In this document: positions 1-63,044 of the stretch, piece after piece | How the letters are laid out: each line of letters begins with the position of its first letter | Numbering within the stretch: position 1 is the first letter of the stretch | IMG/VR virus record: IMGVR_UViG_3300045988_130225 | Span: 1-64,000 of that record | Strand: one strand, 5' to 3' | Origin: a virus | DNA: 64,000 nt | Program-made: the position numbers and the translations under genes | Notes under the pieces: generated by a model | The model's database searches: none | What the model was told of the DNA's origin: nothing | Seen by the model: the letters and a program-made list of their open reading frames with translations, nothing else

Positions 1-2
1 TG

Positions 3-68
3 GTAGAAGTCTACGAAAACCAAGTAGCAAAACATAAAATATTAAGAAAGGAAAAGCTACTTAGATGA
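3..68 (+). CDS. 3' end (22 codons, ...KHKILRKEKLLR*) of a CDS entering from upstream of the window; possibly the C-terminus of a second TnpB-like gene
   Basis: Frame 3 is open from the window edge to TGA at 66-68. The next 134 nt are homologous to the sequence at and after the 3' end of the tnpB at 60096-61289. Confidence 0.3.
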   Translation, partial: VEVYENQVAKHKILRKEKLLR

Positions 69-69
69 A

Positions 70-240
70 ATCTGTATCTAATCAAATATAAGAATTTACA
101 GATATGTACCGATGGCTAAGTCGGGAATTAACGACTGTGGAGTGTACAAGAACCTGTGAGTAGCGTATTACTTGTAATCGCCAAAGCATACACAATGAAG
201 CAGTAACTATAAATCGTGAGATTATAGCAAATCATCTAGC
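70..240 (+). ncRNA. TnpB right-end / omega-RNA-like scaffold, diverged copy 2
   Basis: Positions 70-203 align by eye with the minus strand of 59976-60108 (shared blocks ATCTGTATC, ATATGTAC, TGGAG, CAAGAAC-TGTGAGTAG, AAAGCATAC, TGAAGYAG). A hairpin CTATAA/TTATAG follows at 207-227. Confidence 0.45.
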
Positions 241-283
241 ATATGCACATTTGTATATGTTTTTAGTAGCAGATAACTAAACT

Positions 284-1294
284 ATGAAGAATGTAAGACA
301 GACAACTAACACAGGACTTTTAATTGGTACTCTTTCTGAAAAGAATACAGAGATTAAGCAGATTGAATTAACAAAAGACGATAACACCAAGTTTAAGTGC
401 AATGCTGTACAGGGAAATATTGTAGTTTCTACTGTAAACGGTGATTTTAATTTAAGAGTTAATTGTCCAGAGTGTAAGAAAGATGGTACAAAGACCAAGC
501 TGTATGCAAATTTTGAAACACTTCATAACAGCTATGTATCTGCTGTAGAAGCCGCAAAAGATAAATCACTTACACCAAGTATTATTGGTGCTACCGTAGG
601 ACTTAGCTGTTGGGATAGATATAACCAGAATAGTGGTAAAATGGTATCTTCACCACAGATTAGATTAAGAGTTGTAAATAGAGAAAATTCAGATGCAGAA
701 TCTCAGACAGATTTTTCACTTGAAGGTGTTATTCGTTCTATTAAACCAGAAACGACAATCCCTAAGAGCGATACAGAAGAAGCAGAAGAAACAGGTAGAT
801 TACTTGTAGAATTTATTACAATTAATTTTAACAGCGAAGCAGAGCCTTATAGTTTAATTGTTCCAGAAGATTTAGCAGAAGCATTTGTAAATGGTTGGAC
901 TGATGATGATGGAACAGTAGTAAACGGTTATGCTGTAGGCGATACTTGCTGTTTAGGTGTTGAACTTGTTATGCGTCATGTAGGTGGCGAAAAGAAGAAA
1001 TCTGCGGGATTTGGCAGAAAAGCAAAGGTAGCAGAGGGATTTGATGTATTAGAACTGGTTGTAATTGGTGGTGAGCCTGCTTATACAGATGATACCGAGG
1101 ACGAAAAGAAAAAGCCTTTCACACCAGAAGTAATGAAAGAACTTATGAATGAGCGTAAGATGAAACTTGAAAAGATTGAAAAGGACGCAAAAGAAAATAA
1201 AGACAGTGGTTCTTCTCAGAAATCAAGTGGCAAAGGTCTTGGTGGACGTAAGCCAAATGTGAACATGGCTGATATGGGTGACGCTCCTTTCTAA
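284..1294 (+). CDS. Early protein of unknown family with an SSB-like acidic C-terminal tip (...ADMGDAPF)
   Basis: 336-aa ORF. Its Gly/Ser/Lys-rich linker followed by D-A-P-F resembles the bacterial SSB tip DDDIPF. It lies next to recombination and replication genes. Confidence 0.55.
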   Translation: MKNVRQTTNTGLLIGTLSEKNTEIKQIELTKDDNTKFKCNAVQGNIVVSTVNGDFNLRVNCPECKKDGTKTKLYANFETLHNSYVSAVEAAKDKSLTPSIIGATVGLSCWDRYNQNSGKMVSSPQIRLRVVNRENSDAESQTDFSLEGVIRSIKPETTIPKSDTEEAEETGRLLVEFITINFNSEAEPYSLIVPEDLAEAFVNGWTDDDGTVVNGYAVGDTCCLGVELVMRHVGGEKKKSAGFGRKAKVAEGFDVLELVVIGGEPAYTDDTEDEKKKPFTPEVMKELMNERKMKLEKIEKDAKENKDSGSSQKSSGKGLGGRKPNVNMADMGDAPF

Positions 1295-1407: not shown

Positions 1408-1611
1408 ATGAATAAAAATGAAATGACAACAAACGAAGTAATAAAATTACTTCTTAATAAAGAGATAGAAATTGATAATAAAATTATAAATACTGTTTCA
1501 GAATTGTTGCGTTTAGGTTATGAATCAGATCGAGGGAAACAGTATGTAAAGGATTTGAGAGGTTCTATAGAGTATACATTGGAAGATATTGAAAGAATTT
1601 TAAACAAATAA
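1408..1611 (+). CDS. Hypothetical protein (67 aa)
   Basis: ORF in the co-directional early gene array. Confidence 0.65.
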   Translation: MNKNEMTTNEVIKLLLNKEIEIDNKIINTVSELLRLGYESDRGKQYVKDLRGSIEYTLEDIERILNK

Positions 1612-59416: not shown

Positions 59417-59919
59417 AATTTCACCCCTTTGATACCCCATTTGCTAATATTAAAATCGAACTTATCAAAATCTGTAGGCATTTGTTGTGCTTTATCATTT
59501 AATGTATTTACTTGTCCCATAATGATATTGTATTTTCTAAATAATCTATACATATCGGAAGTTACGTTTCTATCCCTATGAGCAATAGCAATGTCTACTA
59601 CTTTATTCATAATTTCATAAACTTCGCTAAACTCTTTTAAGACCGTAGAAAACATATCAGATAAATTAGAATAATTTCTATCATCTTTATGGACTTCTGG
59701 GCGAATAGAAGATAAATTATAATTATCTTTAATTTCACTCACAACATCTGCAAGCAAAGGCATAGTATGACTTATGTTAAGATGTACAATTTCTCCTGCG
59801 TTTGGCATAGAAAAATCGTTTAGCATAACAGAAGCTACTCTATCCAAAGTTGCGTTCAAATCAAAAAACGCTCCATACAGCACGTCTAACGCTTCACTTG
59901 TTTCTTCATGTATCAACAA
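59413..59919 (-). CDS. Hypothetical head-module protein (168 aa, TTG start)
   Basis: ORF with GGTGAG 8 nt upstream of the TTG. It lies directly downstream of the tnpB element. Confidence 0.6.
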   Translation of the reverse strand: MLIHEETSEALDVLYGAFFDLNATLDRVASVMLNDFSMPNAGEIVHLNISHTMPLLADVVSEIKDNYNLSSIRPEVHKDDRNYSNLSDMFSTVLKEFSEVYEIMNKVVDIAIAHRDRNVTSDMYRLFRKYNIIMGQVNTLNDKAQQMPTDFDKFDFNISKWGIKGVKL

Positions 59920-59939
59920 ATCAACTCACCGTTACTGAA

Positions 59940-60108
59940 AACTTATAAAAAGTTATAAACTTTTATGTTTCATTCCTACTTCAACGAGTATGCTTTCATA
60001 ATTATTTCTAATATACTACTCACAAGTTCTTGCACTCTCCATAGGCGTAAATTCCGAACTAACGTATTCGTACATATTTATATCAACCTGAAATGCTATG
60101 ATACAGAT
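59940..60108 (-). ncRNA. Predicted omega-RNA (reRNA) scaffold of the TnpB element
   Basis: In this family the omega-RNA spans the 3' end of tnpB through the right end. This stretch is conserved relative to 70-203 and preserves a hairpin through compensatory changes. Confidence 0.5.
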
Positions 60109-61289
60109 TGATTTAAAACATTTTCTCCATATCTTTTAAGATTTAAAGATGCTTGATAATCTCTGTCAATCATATTACCGCAATCACATTTATAAACACG
60201 GTCTGATAATTTTAAATCTTTTTTAATTTTGCCACAACAACTGCATAATTTAGAACTAGGAAAAAACCTATCAGCAACTATTACAGTAATATTATTCCAT
60301 TTACTTTTATATTTAATTTGCCGTCTAAACTCATAAAATCCTTGCTGTTGTATAGCTTTGGATAAATGTTTATTTTTCATCATACCTTTTACATTCAAAT
60401 CTTCAATACAAATAAAACTTGGTTCTCGCTTTATAATTTCAGAAGTTATTTGATGTAAATAATTCTTGCGAATATTTGTTAGTTTATGATTTACTTTTAA
60501 AAGTTTCTTTTCGCTTTTTACAATGTTACTTGTTTTACAATAACTATCTCCTTTCTTGTTTTTTAAATATTCCCTAGAAACAGAACGCTGTAACCTACGT
60601 TTTTTCTTCTCTAACTGTTTTATCTTTTGTGATTTATTTATATTTTGATATTTATAATTATTAGAACAAATAGCTAAATCTTTAATTCCTAAATCAATAC
60701 CAATTCCTTCTTTATTAGGAATATTTACACTATCTGGATATTCTACACCAACTGTAATCCACCAATTTAATCCGTCAAATTTAATTCTAGGATTATAATA
60801 TTTACAATCTGTCGGTATACGATTACGTTCAGCAAGTCGTATCCAGTTTAATTTCTGCTTATTTTTCTTTTTAGATTTTGTAAATCCTTCAACTTTTACA
60901 TGAGTTTCAGAAAATTGAATTTTTACACTATCTTGGTAAAAGGAGGGTGTAGATTTTTTTCTGTTTTTAAATTTAGGAAAGTTTGTCAAGCCTTTAAAAA
61001 ATTTCTTATAAGCATCACAAGCATCTTTAATAGCTTGTTTTGTGACATTGTTAGAAATATCATTTAACCAGACATATTTCTGTGTATGTTTCATTTTTGT
61101 AAATTCTTTTCGCAAATCCGTATCAGATAGAAATTTACCACCATTTTTATAATTTTCTTGTTCTCTTGCTAATGCCCAGTTATAAGCAAATCGAGCAGTG
61201 TAAGCATACTGAAGCAATTTTGTCTTTTGTTTATTGTTTGGAATTAACATTACTCGAATCGTTTTTAACACATTGTTCGCCACCTTCAT
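60096..61289 (-). CDS. tnpB: TnpB RNA-guided nuclease (IS605 OrfB family)
   Basis: GIDLGIKDLA (RuvC-I Asp), CIEDLNVKGM (RuvC-II Glu), Zn finger CSCCG...CDCG and DRDYQAS (RuvC-III Asp). The true start may be the GTG at 61271, which follows AAGGTGG. Confidence 0.9.
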   Translation of the reverse strand: MKVANNVLKTIRVMLIPNNKQKTKLLQYAYTARFAYNWALAREQENYKNGGKFLSDTDLRKEFTKMKHTQKYVWLNDISNNVTKQAIKDACDAYKKFFKGLTNFPKFKNRKKSTPSFYQDSVKIQFSETHVKVEGFTKSKKKNKQKLNWIRLAERNRIPTDCKYYNPRIKFDGLNWWITVGVEYPDSVNIPNKEGIGIDLGIKDLAICSNNYKYQNINKSQKIKQLEKKKRRLQRSVSREYLKNKKGDSYCKTSNIVKSEKKLLKVNHKLTNIRKNYLHQITSEIIKREPSFICIEDLNVKGMMKNKHLSKAIQQQGFYEFRRQIKYKSKWNNITVIVADRFFPSSKLCSCCGKIKKDLKLSDRVYKCDCGNMIDRDYQASLNLKRYGENVLNQSVS

Positions 61290-61430
61290 CTATAAGTTCT
61301 TTTACAAATTTCTTTGCTTTGTCTTATAAAACTTATAAAAATCAACATTCAATTATAACTTTTTATAAGTTTATAATCATTGTTATTCACCTCTTTCAAC
61401 CAGTGTTACTCACTGTTACTAATCAGTACC

Positions 61431-63044
61431 CTATTGATTTCGTGACCGTTCAGCAGAATCAGAAATGGCTTCTTCACTTTGAGGTCTACCAACTTGTCCA
61501 CTACCCCCACTCATGGTATGAATAGACAAAAGTTGTGATAAATTGTCTAAGAAATCACTATTATGTGCTTCTTCCAACATTCTCTCAAAATCCATAGGTT
61601 TATATCCAAAAGCAGACGCATAAGCACTTGAATTAAGTACCATACCCACATCTGCTAATTTCATAATAGCATCTTGCTTCTTTTTACGCCAAAATGGTTG
61701 TGTACATCCATCAAACGTAAACTTAAACTTAAATTGTTTAGTTTTCTGATTAGCATAGAACTCTAAGAAATTGTTAAATTGAGTATATAATTTAGCCACA
61801 ATCTCATAATCAGCAGTAATAGCCGCTTGAAGTTCTTCGTTTGACATTCTATCCGTAGCGTAAATTAAACGGCTTGCAGAACTACCATATCCCACTGTAT
61901 CTTTAGCGGCAGTAGTAGCCATATCTGTGTTTTTATCCTCAAACTGTTTAAATTCAACTTCTTCAAGAGGTAAAGCAATAGAACGAACAATTTTATCTTG
62001 TGTCATAGAGTTTTTCAATCCACTAGCGACAAGTTTCATTAATCGTCCTAATGTACTTGGTTTGACTGCAAACCTATCAGCAACCTCACCAGATTTTGCA
62101 GAATCTTGCATTTTCATCTCACCGTAAAGTATACCAAAAGCACTGGCAATATCTTTATTTTTTTGTAACTTTGCAATCTCTGTGTTATTGAAAACATTCT
62201 TTAAATACGGAGCCATAAAAGGAACACTTGCAAAATTACTTGTGTCAAACTTGAAAGCCCAGAAACCATCATTAGGACTTGTCTGGTGATAAAGAGTAAA
62301 AGTACCATCACGATTACTTAAGCCGTTTGACGGAATATAATCTTTAAAATCTTTACCGTCCCATACTTCTCTAAGGTATTTTTTAAACACAGGAGCATAG
62401 CAATCTATATCTACACCTTGCATACCAATAAAGTACATCATGTCGAAGTCGAATAATAAGCCACTTTCAAAATAACCAGTTAAGATACATCTATCTTGTG
62501 GCAATGTTTGTAGAGCATATTTAGGATTGTTTCTATCCATGTTTGTTCTAAAACTTGTATAGTGTACTTCATGTCTTAAAAGCTGTTTTACAACTTTTTT
62601 AAATTCACCTTTGTAATCAAAATTATCAAGGAATTTATAAATTCTTGCTTTATCAGCTTTATAATTATCAGACTTATAATCTTCTTTCTTAGCGTTTTTA
62701 CAAGTAATTTGCAAATCAAAAGAAAGGAGATTTGTGTAGTATTCAATAGTTCTGTTATAAATCATATCGAATACTTCCATAAACTCACTATAAGCCTGTA
62801 AGTTTGTAGCACCAGTTTTATACTCGCTTAAAGCCTTTATAATATCGTCATATTTTGGAATCTTAGCATTGTTGTTAAGATTAACCAAATTCTGATTACT
62901 TAACCATGGACTATATACTCCAAAACTATCCAATCCATATAAACTCTGAGCAAAACTTACTACATCATAAACCTGTTGTTCTGATAACATAACAGGTTCT
63001 TCTACTTTAGGAGTTAATCTTTGACTATTTTTCGTAGTTCTCAT
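61431..63044 (-). CDS. Portal protein candidate
   Basis: 537 aa, directly downstream of the terminase-like gene and upstream of the head genes. Confidence 0.6.
   Translation of the reverse strand: MRTTKNSQRLTPKVEEPVMLSEQQVYDVVSFAQSLYGLDSFGVYSPWLSNQNLVNLNNNAKIPKYDDIIKALSEYKTGATNLQAYSEFMEVFDMIYNRTIEYYTNLLSFDLQITCKNAKKEDYKSDNYKADKARIYKFLDNFDYKGEFKKVVKQLLRHEVHYTSFRTNMDRNNPKYALQTLPQDRCILTGYFESGLLFDFDMMYFIGMQGVDIDCYAPVFKKYLREVWDGKDFKDYIPSNGLSNRDGTFTLYHQTSPNDGFWAFKFDTSNFASVPFMAPYLKNVFNNTEIAKLQKNKDIASAFGILYGEMKMQDSAKSGEVADRFAVKPSTLGRLMKLVASGLKNSMTQDKIVRSIALPLEEVEFKQFEDKNTDMATTAAKDTVGYGSSASRLIYATDRMSNEELQAAITADYEIVAKLYTQFNNFLEFYANQKTKQFKFKFTFDGCTQPFWRKKKQDAIMKLADVGMVLNSSAYASAFGYKPMDFERMLEEAHNSDFLDNLSQLLSIHTMSGGSGQVGRPQSEEAISDSAERSRNQ

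What the first reader, a model, noticed from the sequence alone, without database searches (positions are those of the whole stretch)
1..283. Second, diverged omega-RNA-like right-end copy at the window start, with compensatory hairpin changes
The 215-nt gap before 284..1294 is richer in G+C than its surroundings and has no ORF. Positions 70-203 align colinearly with the minus strand of 59976-60108, which is the 3' end of tnpB plus its downstream scaffold. By eye, roughly two thirds to three quarters of positions are identical; I did not compute this.

One short hairpin is preserved by double compensatory substitutions. It is CGAA-8 nt-TTCG in the tnpB copy (60055-60070) and CCGA-8 nt-TCGG here (109-124). 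That argues for selection on RNA structure.

A terminal hairpin (CTATAA / TTATAG, 207-227) occupies the place of the tnpB copy's subterminal hairpin. The 22 codons entering from the window edge (3..68) may be the end of a second tnpB paralog. Alternatively this could be an orphan guide-RNA module served in trans by the TnpB at 60 kb.
Basis: seen in the sequence. Interest (0 to 1): 0.7.

Follow-up and report, generated by a model that had tools for sequence, protein, structure and literature searches.

The report
Orphan TnpB guide-RNA mini-transposon in phage
The window begins inside a 451-base mobile element with no genes that carries a complete guide RNA for a TnpB nuclease it does not encode, and it belongs to a large family of such elements wedged between the ribosome-binding site and start codon of gut-phage genes.

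Summary
Window 68-206 aligns with the minus strand downstream of tnpB at about 70% identity (score 66; shuffles 21.5±2.8). Both places hit Rfam RAGATH-18 (73.5 and 70.6 bits), the core of the guide RNA (reRNA/omega RNA) of IS607-type TnpB.

No tnpB lies upstream. A contig identical to the window shows that the window starts at base 180 of a 451-bp ORF-less insertion that sister phages lack. The insertion sits exactly between AGGAG (the published TAM, here the Shine-Dalgarno) and the spacer+ATG of the yorF-like gene. The right end is at 272 and the guide is 273-292, not 228-245.

At least 127 copies at about 47 sites share one architecture: IS607-like ends, a ~240-nt covariation-supported RNA domain unknown to Rfam, then a full reRNA scaffold.

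- That scaffold is 80-89% identical to the scaffold of an autonomous IS607 whose TnpB closely matches ISFba1 (PDB 8IAZ, TAM AGGAG).
- The window's own TnpB is only 40-42% identical to the TnpBs that carry this scaffold type. Its reRNA 3' flank is shorter and its TAM appears to be AGAGG.

Most likely this is a non-autonomous mini-transposon whose guide is used in trans by an ISFba1-like TnpB. It is a new variant of a known kind.

The parts
1..67 (+). 3' end of the conserved ~240-nt structured 'left module' of the mini-element (element positions 180-246; the first 179 nt lie upstream of the window, = L001 9539-9717). It holds hairpin CUAC 11-14 / GUAG 24-27 (plus G9-C28), an A-rich linker, and the invariant GAAAGGA at 46-52. 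An alternative pairing is AAGUAGC 22-28 / GCUACUU 56-62.
   Evidence: L001 is identical to the window over 1294 nt. Family alignment A1. Helix 6 shows compensatory changes. nhmmer places window 1-67 at profile positions 172-238 of the left module. No Rfam family matches.
62..68 (+). UAGAUGA, the proposed 5' strand of the reRNA pseudoknot. It is complementary to UCAUCUA at 232-238.
   Evidence: Seven perfect base pairs. AGAUG is nearly invariant among the 77 distinct copies, and the flanking pair shows only partial covariation. This is an inference by analogy with PK2 of the ISFba1 reRNA.
70..103 (+). First stem-loop of the reRNA scaffold (AUCUGUA 70-76 / UACAGAU 97-103).
   Evidence: Helix 7: 3 of 7 pairs are changed on both sides and 99% of cells are paired. 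One copy (L089) carries about 100 extra nt in this loop.
109..124 (+). Hairpin of the 5' flank (CCGA / UCGG).
   Evidence: Invariant within the family (helix 8). Two pairs are compensated relative to the tnpB-linked copy at 60055-60070.
134..206 (+). RAGATH-18 core of the reRNA.
   Evidence: Rfam RF03064, 73.5 bits, full model 1-71.
207..272 (+). 66-nt 3' flank of the reRNA, which is also the transposon right end. It contains a stem-loop at 207-227, the linker UCAUCUA at 232-238, a stem-loop at 239-260, and the tail UUUUUAGUAGCAG that ends at 272.
   Evidence: The right-end boundary comes from filled versus empty sites. Helices 9 and 10 are. It is 80% identical to the 3' flank of the autonomous IS607 in L038. 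The length matches the published 64-nt 3' flank.
273..292 (+). Predicted 20-nt guide ATAACTAAACTATGAAGAAT. This is flanking phage DNA that covers the spacer and the start codon (284-286) of the yorF-like gene.
   Evidence: The empty site in L002, L007 and L008 reads AGGAG|ATAACTAAACTATGAAG. In the published system the guide is the variable sequence next to the 3' flank, with 20 nt optimal.
284..1294 (+). yorF-like gene (336 aa) whose Shine-Dalgarno is separated from its ATG by the insertion.
   Evidence: ORF. Pfam YorF annotation, and the identical protein in both filled and empty contigs.
59929..61389 (-). The tnpB-bearing element used for comparison. tnpB is at 60096-61289 and RAGATH-18 at 59973-60045. 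The 3' flank is about 45 nt and ends ...UUUUCAGUAACGG. A perfect 20-nt inverted repeat lies at 59939-59958 / 61353-61372. The ends are ambiguous by 5 nt (GGTGA).
   Evidence: The empty site in L011-L020 reads GAAAGAGGTGA|GTTGATTTG. The repeat is I1. It is the only TnpB in the window.

Best explanation
Window 1-272 is the right-hand 60% of a 451-bp, ORF-less, non-autonomous derivative of an IS607-type transposon.

The element has four parts:
- an IS607-like left end, TAAGTAACTAAAAA, with stop codons in all three frames;
- a ~240-nt conserved structured RNA domain of unknown role;
- a complete RAGATH-18-type guide-RNA scaffold (reRNA/omega RNA);
- the right end, ...TAGTAGCAG.

It sits in the sense orientation between the AGGAG Shine-Dalgarno and the ATG of the yorF-like gene.

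Proposed mechanism:
- The element is read through from the phage promoter upstream (inferred).
- The scaffold plus the next ~20 nt of phage sequence (273-292) forms a guide RNA.
- That RNA is loaded in trans by an ISFba1-like TnpB, encoded by the host or by another element (inferred).
- The complex cuts copies of the phage genome that lack the insertion, at AGGAG + ATAACTAAACTATGAAGAAT (inferred).
- Recombination with a filled copy then re-installs the element, giving homing and retention (inferred).
- Movement to new sites needs an IS607 serine TnpA in trans (inferred).

Shown here: the anatomy, the precise insertion with no target duplication, the TAM, the family-wide architecture, selection on RNA structure, and the affinity of the scaffold to the ISFba1 lineage. 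The steps marked 'inferred' are not demonstrated.
For: - RNA family and similarity. The similarity to the tnpB-linked copy is significant.
- Insertion. L001 equals the window, and the 451-bp insertion is bounded by filled and empty sites that are otherwise identical.
- Published system. reRNA = 5' flank + 73-nt RAGATH-18 + 64-nt 3' flank + guide, with TAM 5'-AGGAG.
- Copy number. 42 full copies in viral contigs and 120 or more metagenome loci with the same spacing of parts.
- Site preference, among 47 distinct sites. 35 have AGGAG and 42 have an SD-like motif just upstream. 40 have an ORF of at least 60 codons starting 1-14 nt after the right end.
- Structure. 98.6% of cells are paired, 27 of 54 pairs are changed on both sides, 0 of 500 shuffles reach this, and slid controls give at most 6 such pairs.
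- Lineage. The scaffold is 80-89% identical to that of L038, which carries tnpA and tnpB and shares the LE motif TAAGTAACTAA and an RE ending GAGTAGCAG. The L038 TnpB scores 610 bits against ISFba1 TnpB, PDB 8IAZ.
- Transcription. A strong promoter-like site lies upstream of the preceding gene. No promoter or terminator is found inside the element.
- Precedent. ORF-less elements whose omega RNAs must be served in trans are already described for IS200/IS605.
Against: - No ISFba1-like TnpB or IS607 TnpA was found in the 64-kb window or within 979 kb of flanks held around 120 metagenomic copies. The trans partner is therefore hypothetical.
- The preference for AGGAG could reflect TnpA target choice alone, without any TnpB activity.
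- No transcript, binding or cleavage data exist.
- The model gives no role to the conserved left module.
- The model does not explain how genes cut off from their Shine-Dalgarno are still expressed.
Confidence: 0.7

Rival explanations
1. The orphan guide RNA is served in trans by the phage's own TnpB at 60096-61289.
For: Both RNAs belong to the RAGATH-18 class. They share the first stem-loop, the 5'-flank hairpin and the core at about 70% identity, with compensated pairs. It is the only TnpB in the 64-kb window. The same tnpB insertion occurs in related contigs (L017, L021).
Against: - The window's TnpB is 40-42% identical to the TnpBs linked to this scaffold type. It scores 274.7 bits to ISFba1, against 610 bits for the cognate type.
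- Its own reRNA 3' flank is about 45 nt with one predicted stem-loop, instead of 66 nt with two.
- Its insertion site gives TAM AGAGG (ambiguous within GAGGTGA), not AGGAG. For ISFba1, every single TAM substitution abolished cleavage.
- Most mini-element copies lie in contigs where no such tnpB is seen nearby.
Confidence: 0.15
2. The left module makes the element an IStron-like stealth insertion. In this reading the RNA removes itself, or otherwise restores the link between the Shine-Dalgarno and the start codon, while the reRNA part serves TnpB. This would be an ORF-less analogue of IS607 group-B IStrons. It would add to the main explanation rather than replace it.
For: - Position. The element sits in the sense orientation inside transcripts, between SD and ATG, at about 40 of 47 sites. 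It has three-frame stops at its 5' end and a G as its last base.
- Tolerance. The downstream yorF-like protein is identical in filled and empty phages. A cultured phage, Butyrivibrio virus Ceridwen, carries a copy before a 708-aa gene.
- Structure. The left module is a conserved multi-helix RNA with invariant junction nucleotides.
- Precedent. IS607-type IStrons insert after G-rich sites such as AGGG and GGAGG, splice after a G, and have ORF-less variants. In them splicing and omega-RNA folding compete through a shared 3' motif.
- Possible competition here. The linker AUCAUC (233-238) could pair either with UAGAUGA (62-68) or with the left-module GAUGGU, which lies directly 5' of the 3' strand of a long-range helix.
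Against: - There is no Rfam group I hit at E<=10 in six copies. A true IStron intron in a sister phage scores 69.5 bits with the same tool.
- No pyrimidine tract anywhere in the element could pair with AGGAG as an internal guide sequence (by inspection of A1).
- No convincing P4 or P7 pairing was found.
- The candidate P7 strands are invariant, and one strand was part of the search pattern, so the pairing cannot be tested.
Confidence: 0.15
3. It is a dead relic of a decayed IS607 right end and has no present function.
For: No transposase or nuclease gene lies in or next to it.
Against: - At least 127 copies at about 47 sites keep the full architecture at 70-98% identity.
- Compensatory changes occur in most helices of both halves.
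- Closely related phages, with the identical YorF protein and identical junction-flanking sequence, are polymorphic for presence or absence, with scar-free boundaries.
Confidence: 0.04
4. It is the right end of a second tnpB gene that lies just upstream of the window.
For: An open frame enters from the window edge (3..68), and in the tnpB-linked copy the homologous stretch overlaps the end of tnpB.
Against: - L001 (identical over 1294 nt) and L003 show only 179 more nt of ORF-less element, then AGGAG and a 90-aa phage gene.
- tblastn with four TnpBs finds nothing in the 451 bp.
- The frame is not conserved in other copies.
Confidence: 0.01

Closest known systems
reRNA (RAGATH-18-derived omega RNA) of IS607-family TnpB, type ISFba1 (Ren et al. 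2024, PMC11061315; PDB 8IAZ)
   Same: - RAGATH-18 core, conserved 5' and 3' flanks of the published lengths, and the guide directly 3' of the right end.
- TAM AGGAG on the left.
- The scaffold is 80-89% identical to that of an IS607 whose TnpB is a close ISFba1 homologue.
   Different: - There is no tnpB (or tnpA) in the element or nearby.
- The RNA is preceded by a ~240-nt structured domain instead of the tnpB 3' end.
- The context is phage genomes.
PATE-like ORF-less IS200/IS605 elements that carry omega RNAs (Meers et al. 2023, PMC10055086)
   Same: Minimal non-autonomous elements with transposon ends and a guide RNA that must be used by a TnpB, and moved by a TnpA, encoded elsewhere.
   Different: - Those are IS200/IS605 elements: tyrosine HUH TnpA, ssDNA hairpin ends, TTGAT-type TAMs.
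- This one has IS607-type ends and an AGGAG TAM.
- It also carries an extra conserved RNA domain larger than the guide scaffold.
IS607-type (group B) IStrons, including the ORF-less BcISt1 variants (Tourasse et al. 2014, PMC4227781; Zedaveinyte et al. 2023, 10.1101/2023.11.20.567912)
   Same: - A structured RNA at the left, an omega RNA at the right, and IS607-type ends.
- Sense insertion in transcripts after a G-rich, SD-like motif.
- ORF-less derivatives exist.
   Different: - The left RNA is not recognisable as a group I intron: there is no covariance-model hit and no internal guide sequence for AGGAG.
- Splicing is unproven.
The tnpB element in the same window (59929-61389, minus strand)
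   Same: RAGATH-18-class reRNA, insertion with no target duplication after an SD-like purine motif in front of a phage gene, and empty sites in sister phages.
   Different: - It encodes TnpB.
- It has a different TnpB lineage and a shorter 3' flank.
- Its TAM is AGAGG.
- It has 20-nt perfect subterminal inverted repeats and no left module.

Membership tests
Rfam RAGATH-18 (RF03064) | Covariance-model score at or above the gathering score (44.9 bits) over the full model | tested here: met
   73.5 bits, model positions 1-71, window 134-206.
reRNA / omega RNA of IS607-family TnpB | Conserved 5' flank (about 37-50 nt) and 3' flank (about 60-64 nt) around the RAGATH-18 core | tested here: met
   The 5' part at 68-133 and the 66-nt 3' flank at 207-272 are 86% and 80% identical to those of the L038 IS607.
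reRNA / omega RNA of IS607-family TnpB | Encoded directly downstream of an IS607 tnpB gene | tested here: not met
   There is no tnpB in the 451-bp element or in the 10 kb upstream. This holds for the family too.
reRNA / omega RNA of IS607-family TnpB | The scaffold ends at the transposon right end, so the adjacent flanking DNA supplies the guide | tested here: met
   Filled versus empty sites place the right end at 272. The flank differs at each of about 47 sites.
reRNA / omega RNA of IS607-family TnpB | TAM (5'-AGGAG for the ISFba1 group) abuts the left end | tested here: met
   Here the junction reads AAAGGAG|GAAAGA. 35 of 47 sites have AGGAG.
reRNA / omega RNA of IS607-family TnpB | Binds TnpB and directs TAM-dependent dsDNA cleavage | not testable with these tools
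   This needs biochemistry.
IS607-family transposon (autonomous) | Encodes a serine-recombinase TnpA | tested here: not met
   There is no ORF in the element. No TnpA was found by tblastn around 120 copies.
IS607-family transposon (ends and footprint) | No target-site duplication; AT-rich imperfect inverted repeats; ends shared with an autonomous element | tested here: met
   The insertion is scar-free. LE ACTAAAAA pairs with RE TTTTTAGT. L038 shares the LE motif TAAGTAACTAA and an RE ending GAGTAGCAG.
Non-autonomous miniature element (MITE/PATE-like) | Short, ORF-less, and multi-copy at different sites with conserved ends | tested here: met
   434-451 bp, at least 127 copies, about 47 sites.
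IStron (group I intron + IS) | Left part is a group I intron (covariance-model match, P1 with an internal guide sequence for the 5' exon) | tested here: not met
   No Intron_gpI hit at E<=10 in six copies, while the control L014 scores 69.5 bits. No tract complementary to AGGAG is present.
IStron (group I intron + IS) | Self-splices and rejoins the flanking exons | not testable with these tools
   This needs RT-PCR or an in vitro splicing assay.

The most novel reading that the evidence does not exclude
The conserved ~240-nt left domain may be a new kind of functional RNA that lets a guide-RNA-only transposon live inside phage operons. It could act as a self-removing or mRNA-repairing ribozyme, doing the job of the group I intron in IStrons without being one. 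It could instead be a structural bridge or switch that restores translation of the gene cut off from its Shine-Dalgarno. Either way, the element would be a three-function RNA parasite (mobility ends, guide, stealth device) with no protein of its own, spread through gut phages and relying on host TnpB and TnpA.
Probability: 0.15. Interest if true: 0.85.

Novelty: new variant of a known kind. Interest (0 to 1): 0.55.

Why it matters
- RNA-guided transposon systems can shrink to the guide alone. This family is gene-free and abundant, and it appears to depend on nucleases and transposases encoded elsewhere.
- It adds an IS607/RAGATH-18 counterpart to the PATE-type elements known for IS200/IS605.
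- It may account for some of the roughly one third of RAGATH-18 RNAs reported as not adjacent to a TnpB.
- The AGGAG TAM doubles as the Shine-Dalgarno. This family therefore lands between ribosome-binding site and start codon, which raises a concrete question about how the downstream phage genes stay expressed.
- The unexplained, strongly covarying 240-nt RNA domain is a defined candidate for a new RNA function. A cultured phage-host pair (Butyrivibrio virus Ceridwen and B. fibrisolvens DSM 3071) carries a copy, so it can be tested.
- For genome annotation, RAGATH-18 hits without tnpB should be read as right ends of mini-elements, with predictable guides.

Tried and rejected
- tnpB remnant. 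tblastn of four TnpBs against the 451-bp element gave nothing better than chance, and the frame at 3..68 is not conserved.
- Group I intron or other known RNA in the left module. Rfam E-value mode on L001 9450-10050 and on five divergent copies returned only RAGATH-18. The positive control, L014, gave Intron_gpI at 69.5 bits. Phage c-st ISCbt4-a (L070) was tried as a second control, but that copy has no intron region.
- tRNA or tmRNA-like fold. ARAGORN found none.
- Single-sequence folding. The left module has z = -1.4, which is uninformative. The evidence for structure comes from covariation.
- Promoter or terminator inside the element. None was found.
- Left module in another context. Pattern scans of viral contigs and metagenomes, plus an nhmmer profile over all held loci, found it only inside the mini-element, never with tnpB in between.
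- Cognate TnpB on the same viral contigs. The search for related loci with the L038 TnpB returned only two loci. It could not be used for an intersection.
- Wasted scans. The bacterial-genome distribution was therefore not surveyed.
- LE-RE helix (ACUAAAAA/UUUUUAGU) as an RNA pairing. Variants are not compensated, so it is better read as the DNA inverted repeat of IS607 ends.
- First covariation listing. It was too permissive and was replaced by helix-level searches.

Full report
**1. The observation**

- A local alignment of window 1-283 with the reverse complement of 59901-60300 joins window 69-206 to the stretch that runs from the last codons of tnpB (60096-61289, minus strand) into its downstream region. 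It scores 66, against 21.5±2.8 for shuffles.
- Rfam finds exactly two matches above gathering score in the whole window, both RAGATH-18: 134-206(+) at 73.5 bits and 59973-60045(-) at 70.6 bits.
It reads CCGA...TCGG at 109-124 and CGAA...TTCG at 60055-70, and two of its four pairs are changed on both sides.
- The claim of higher G+C is marginal.

**2. What RAGATH-18 is**

- Ren et al. 2024 (PMC11061315) showed that RAGATH-18 is the core of the guide RNA ('reRNA', an omega RNA) of IS607-family TnpB nucleases.
- That RNA consists of a 5' flank of about 37 nt starting about 13 nt after tnpB, the 73-nt motif, a 64-nt 3' flank, then the guide (20 nt optimal).
- The TAM is 5'-AGGAG in 18 of 22 strains, and GAGGG in the other four.
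- The copy linked to tnpB in this window fits that layout.

**3. What lies upstream of the window**

- The exact protein of 284-1294 (Pfam YorF) occurs on many contigs of ~95-105-kb SPbeta-like gut phages.
- L001 is identical to the window over its first 1294 nt. It shows that window position 1 is base 180 of a 451-bp insertion (L001 9539-9989).
- Sister contigs L002 and L004-L008 read ...AAATCAAAGGAG|ATAACTAAACTATGAAG.
- The window, L001, L003, L009, L010 and L022 read ...AAAGGAG|GAAAGATAAGTAACTAA...[451 bp]...TTTTTAGTAGCAG|ATAACTAAACTATG.
- The insertion makes no target duplication. Its boundary is ambiguous by one G.
- It lies right after AGGAG, which is both the published TAM and the Shine-Dalgarno of the yorF-like gene.
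- It has no conserved ORF and no detectable TnpB remnant.
- The right end is therefore window 272. The predicted guide is 273-292 (ATAACTAAACTATGAAGAAT), which covers the ATG at 284.
- In the filled allele the TAM is followed by the left end, so the filled allele is not a target.

**4. A family, not a one-off**

- A pattern from the 5' flank found 45 viral loci. About 38 of them are complete elements, 78-97% identical over the whole 451 bp, including one in the cultured Butyrivibrio virus Ceridwen. Only four have a tnpB upstream, and those share just element positions 282-451.
- A pattern from the left half retrieved the same elements from viral contigs. Almost all have the same spacing of left-end motif, RAGATH-18 and right end, and none has a gene in between.
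- Pooled, there are 127 full copies, 77 of them distinct.
- Among 47 distinct sites with enough flank, 35 have AGGAG just upstream, usually 6 nt before TAAGTAAC, and 42 have an SD-like motif. In 40 of them an ORF of at least 60 codons starts 1-14 nt after the right end.
- The family therefore sits, in the sense orientation, between ribosome-binding site and start codon of phage genes.
- No TnpB of this class and no IS607 TnpA lies within the 979 kb held around the metagenomic copies.

**5. Anatomy and selection**

- On an alignment of 17 diverse copies (A1), a structure of ten helices is 98.6% paired. In it, 27 of 54 pairs are changed on both sides. None of 500 shuffles reaches this, and partners slid by 1-3 columns give at most 6 such pairs.
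- The right half is the reRNA scaffold:
  - a first stem-loop at 70-103;
  - the 5'-flank hairpin at 109-124;
  - RAGATH-18 at 134-206;
  - two stem-loops in the 66-nt 3' flank;
  - a likely pseudoknot, UAGAUGA 62-68 with UCAUCUA 232-238.
- The left half (element positions ~7-246; window 1-67 is its end) has six helices supported by compensatory changes. One is a long-range helix (A1 columns 96-106 with 171-180) that encloses two hairpins.
- The left half also has invariant unpaired stretches: AAAAUCCA, CCAG, RYAGAA, UGAUGGU, GAAAACCAA, GAAAGGA.
- G-U pairs place the RNA on the strand of the phage genes.
- Nothing in Rfam 15 matches the left half. It is not tRNA-like. It was found nowhere outside these elements.
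- An autonomous relative (L038: tnpA, tnpB, same left-end motif TAAGTAACTAA, right end ...GAGTAGCAG) lacks it.

**6. Which nuclease?**

- The scaffold is 86%, 89% and 80% identical (5' part, core, 3' flank) to that of L038. It is 71%, 73% and 70% identical to that of the window's tnpB.
- The L038 TnpB scores 610 bits against ISFba1 TnpB. That is PDB 8IAZ, the protein for which TAM AGGAG and the reRNA structure were determined. The window's TnpB scores 274.7 bits.
- The window's TnpB is 40-42% identical to the TnpBs that carry this scaffold type.
- Empty sites for the tnpB element in L011-L020 read GAAAGAGGTGA|GTTGATT. Aligning its right end (UUUUCAGUAACGG) with the family's (UUUUGAGUAGCAG) gives TAM AGAGG and a 3' flank of about 45 nt with one predicted stem-loop.
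- The copy at the window start therefore belongs to the ISFba1 lineage. It is unlikely to be the natural partner of the TnpB at 60 kb, although cross-use is not excluded.

**7. Mechanism**

- Shown:
  - an intact, structurally constrained guide-RNA scaffold at the right end of a mobile, ORF-less IS607-type element;
  - placement beside the correct TAM;
  - presence/absence polymorphism among sister phages that share the identical YorF protein and junction-flanking sequence.
- Inferred:
  - transcription by read-through from the promoter-like site TTGACA-17-TATTAT upstream of the preceding 90-aa gene, with no promoter or terminator inside the element;
  - loading onto an ISFba1-like TnpB supplied in trans. 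Ren et al. report such TnpBs in 9172 strains, 97.8% of them Firmicutes and 84% of the loci from human gut metagenomes;
  - cleavage of empty alleles and copying by recombination, as shown for IS605 and IS607 TnpB elements;
  - transposition by a TnpA in trans.
- The empty sites of L004-L006 differ from the guide at two positions (ATAATTAAACTATGAAA). For a nuclease reported as mismatch-sensitive, that would make them poor targets. This may be chance.

**8. What stays unexplained**

- The role of the left module is unknown. It is also unknown how genes separated from their Shine-Dalgarno by ~450 nt remain expressed.
- The parallel with IS607-type IStrons is close. Those insert after AGGG or GGAGG, splice after a G, and have ORF-less forms, and their intron and omega RNA compete for a 3' motif.
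- The left module nevertheless fails the tests for a group I intron. There is no model hit, whereas a true IStron in sister phages scores 69.5 bits. There is no guide sequence for AGGAG and no P4 or P7 pairing that I could support.
- I therefore file the element as a non-autonomous IS607-type, guide-RNA-bearing mini-transposon. It is a new variant of the PATE-like kind. I keep 'new RNA device' as the most novel reading not excluded.

**9. Limits**

- The bacterial-genome scan was lost to a mistyped pattern.
- Copies were fetched with exact patterns, so invariance of the pattern positions is circular.
- Covariation counts are not phylogeny-corrected.
- There are no expression data.

Noticed in passing
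window 59929-61389 (minus strand); L011-L020 3904-4000: The tnpB element is itself an insertion with no target duplication, between the 537-aa portal-like gene and the 168-aa gene. The empty site in most sister phages reads GAAAGAGGTGA|GTTGATTTG. It also sits after an SD-like motif in front of a start codon. It has a perfect 20-nt inverted repeat near both ends (59939-59958 / 61353-61372) and no tnpA.
   Followed up: partly
L014 1135-2893 and L015 (homologue of window 61431-63044): In some sister phages the 537-aa gene is split into 201-aa and 336-aa parts. The split is made by an IS605-type IStron: a group I intron (Rfam 69.5 bits, L014 1179-1505) plus a 367-aa TnpB that is about 30% identical to the window's. 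L021 has a similar 370-aa TnpB at another site.
   Followed up: partly
L014: The group I intron in L014 scores 69.5 bits, above its gathering score of 50. It was not reported in the 'gathering' run over eight loci and appeared only in E-value mode on 2 kb. The fast filters can therefore lose true introns.
   Followed up: no
L013, L014, L016, L018 (region homologous to window ~57-63 kb): Sister phages carry LAGLIDADG and GIY-YIG/NUMOD1 homing-endonuclease genes at variable places in the structural module. This phage lineage is a hotspot for selfish elements.
   Followed up: no
L004-L006 empty site, equivalent to window 273-292: These empty alleles read AGGAG|ATAATTAAACTATGAAA. They have two mismatches to the predicted guide, one at guide position 5. 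This could be an escape variant or chance.
   Followed up: no
L027 = Butyrivibrio virus Ceridwen MN882553.2 16809-17250: A cultured phage carries a full copy (78.5% identical) after AAAGGAG and 5 nt before the ATG of a gene annotated as 708 aa. The annotated CDS start (17202) lies inside the element's right end, so the annotation probably overextends the gene.
   Followed up: partly
L029+L051 (IMGVR_UViG_3300001486_000084); L037+L046/L075 (IMGVR_UViG_3300021431_000022): Some phage contigs carry two copies of the mini-element at different sites.
   Followed up: no
L104-type (11 loci) and L087-type (37 loci) copies: A subfamily with left end TATGTAATCAGA sits after AAGAGGG, which resembles the second published TAM, GAGGG. 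The most frequent metagenomic site (L087 type) has no AGGAG next to the left-end motif, and GAGGG lies 29 nt upstream.
   Followed up: no
L089 12827-13370: One copy has about 100 extra nt in the loop of the first reRNA stem-loop (between element positions 264 and 269). The ISFba1 paper reports a loop it also names SL1 as disordered and dispensable. Whether the two stem-loops correspond was not mapped.
   Followed up: no
L183 1420-1492: One copy is followed by a tRNA gene (Rfam 67.1 bits) instead of a protein-coding gene.
   Followed up: no
window 1408-1611: A 67-aa ORF between the yorF-like gene and the AAA_24 gene is present in the window, L003 and L007. It is absent from L001 and most other sister contigs. 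This is another small indel polymorphism.
   Followed up: no
window 11-28 and 22-62: Two mutually exclusive pairings share GUAG 24-27: CUAC 11-14/GUAG 24-27, and AAGUAGC 22-28/GCUACUU 56-62. Both are compatible with the sequence variation in the family. The second would enclose the invariant GAAAGGA in its loop. This may be a conformational switch.
   Followed up: partly
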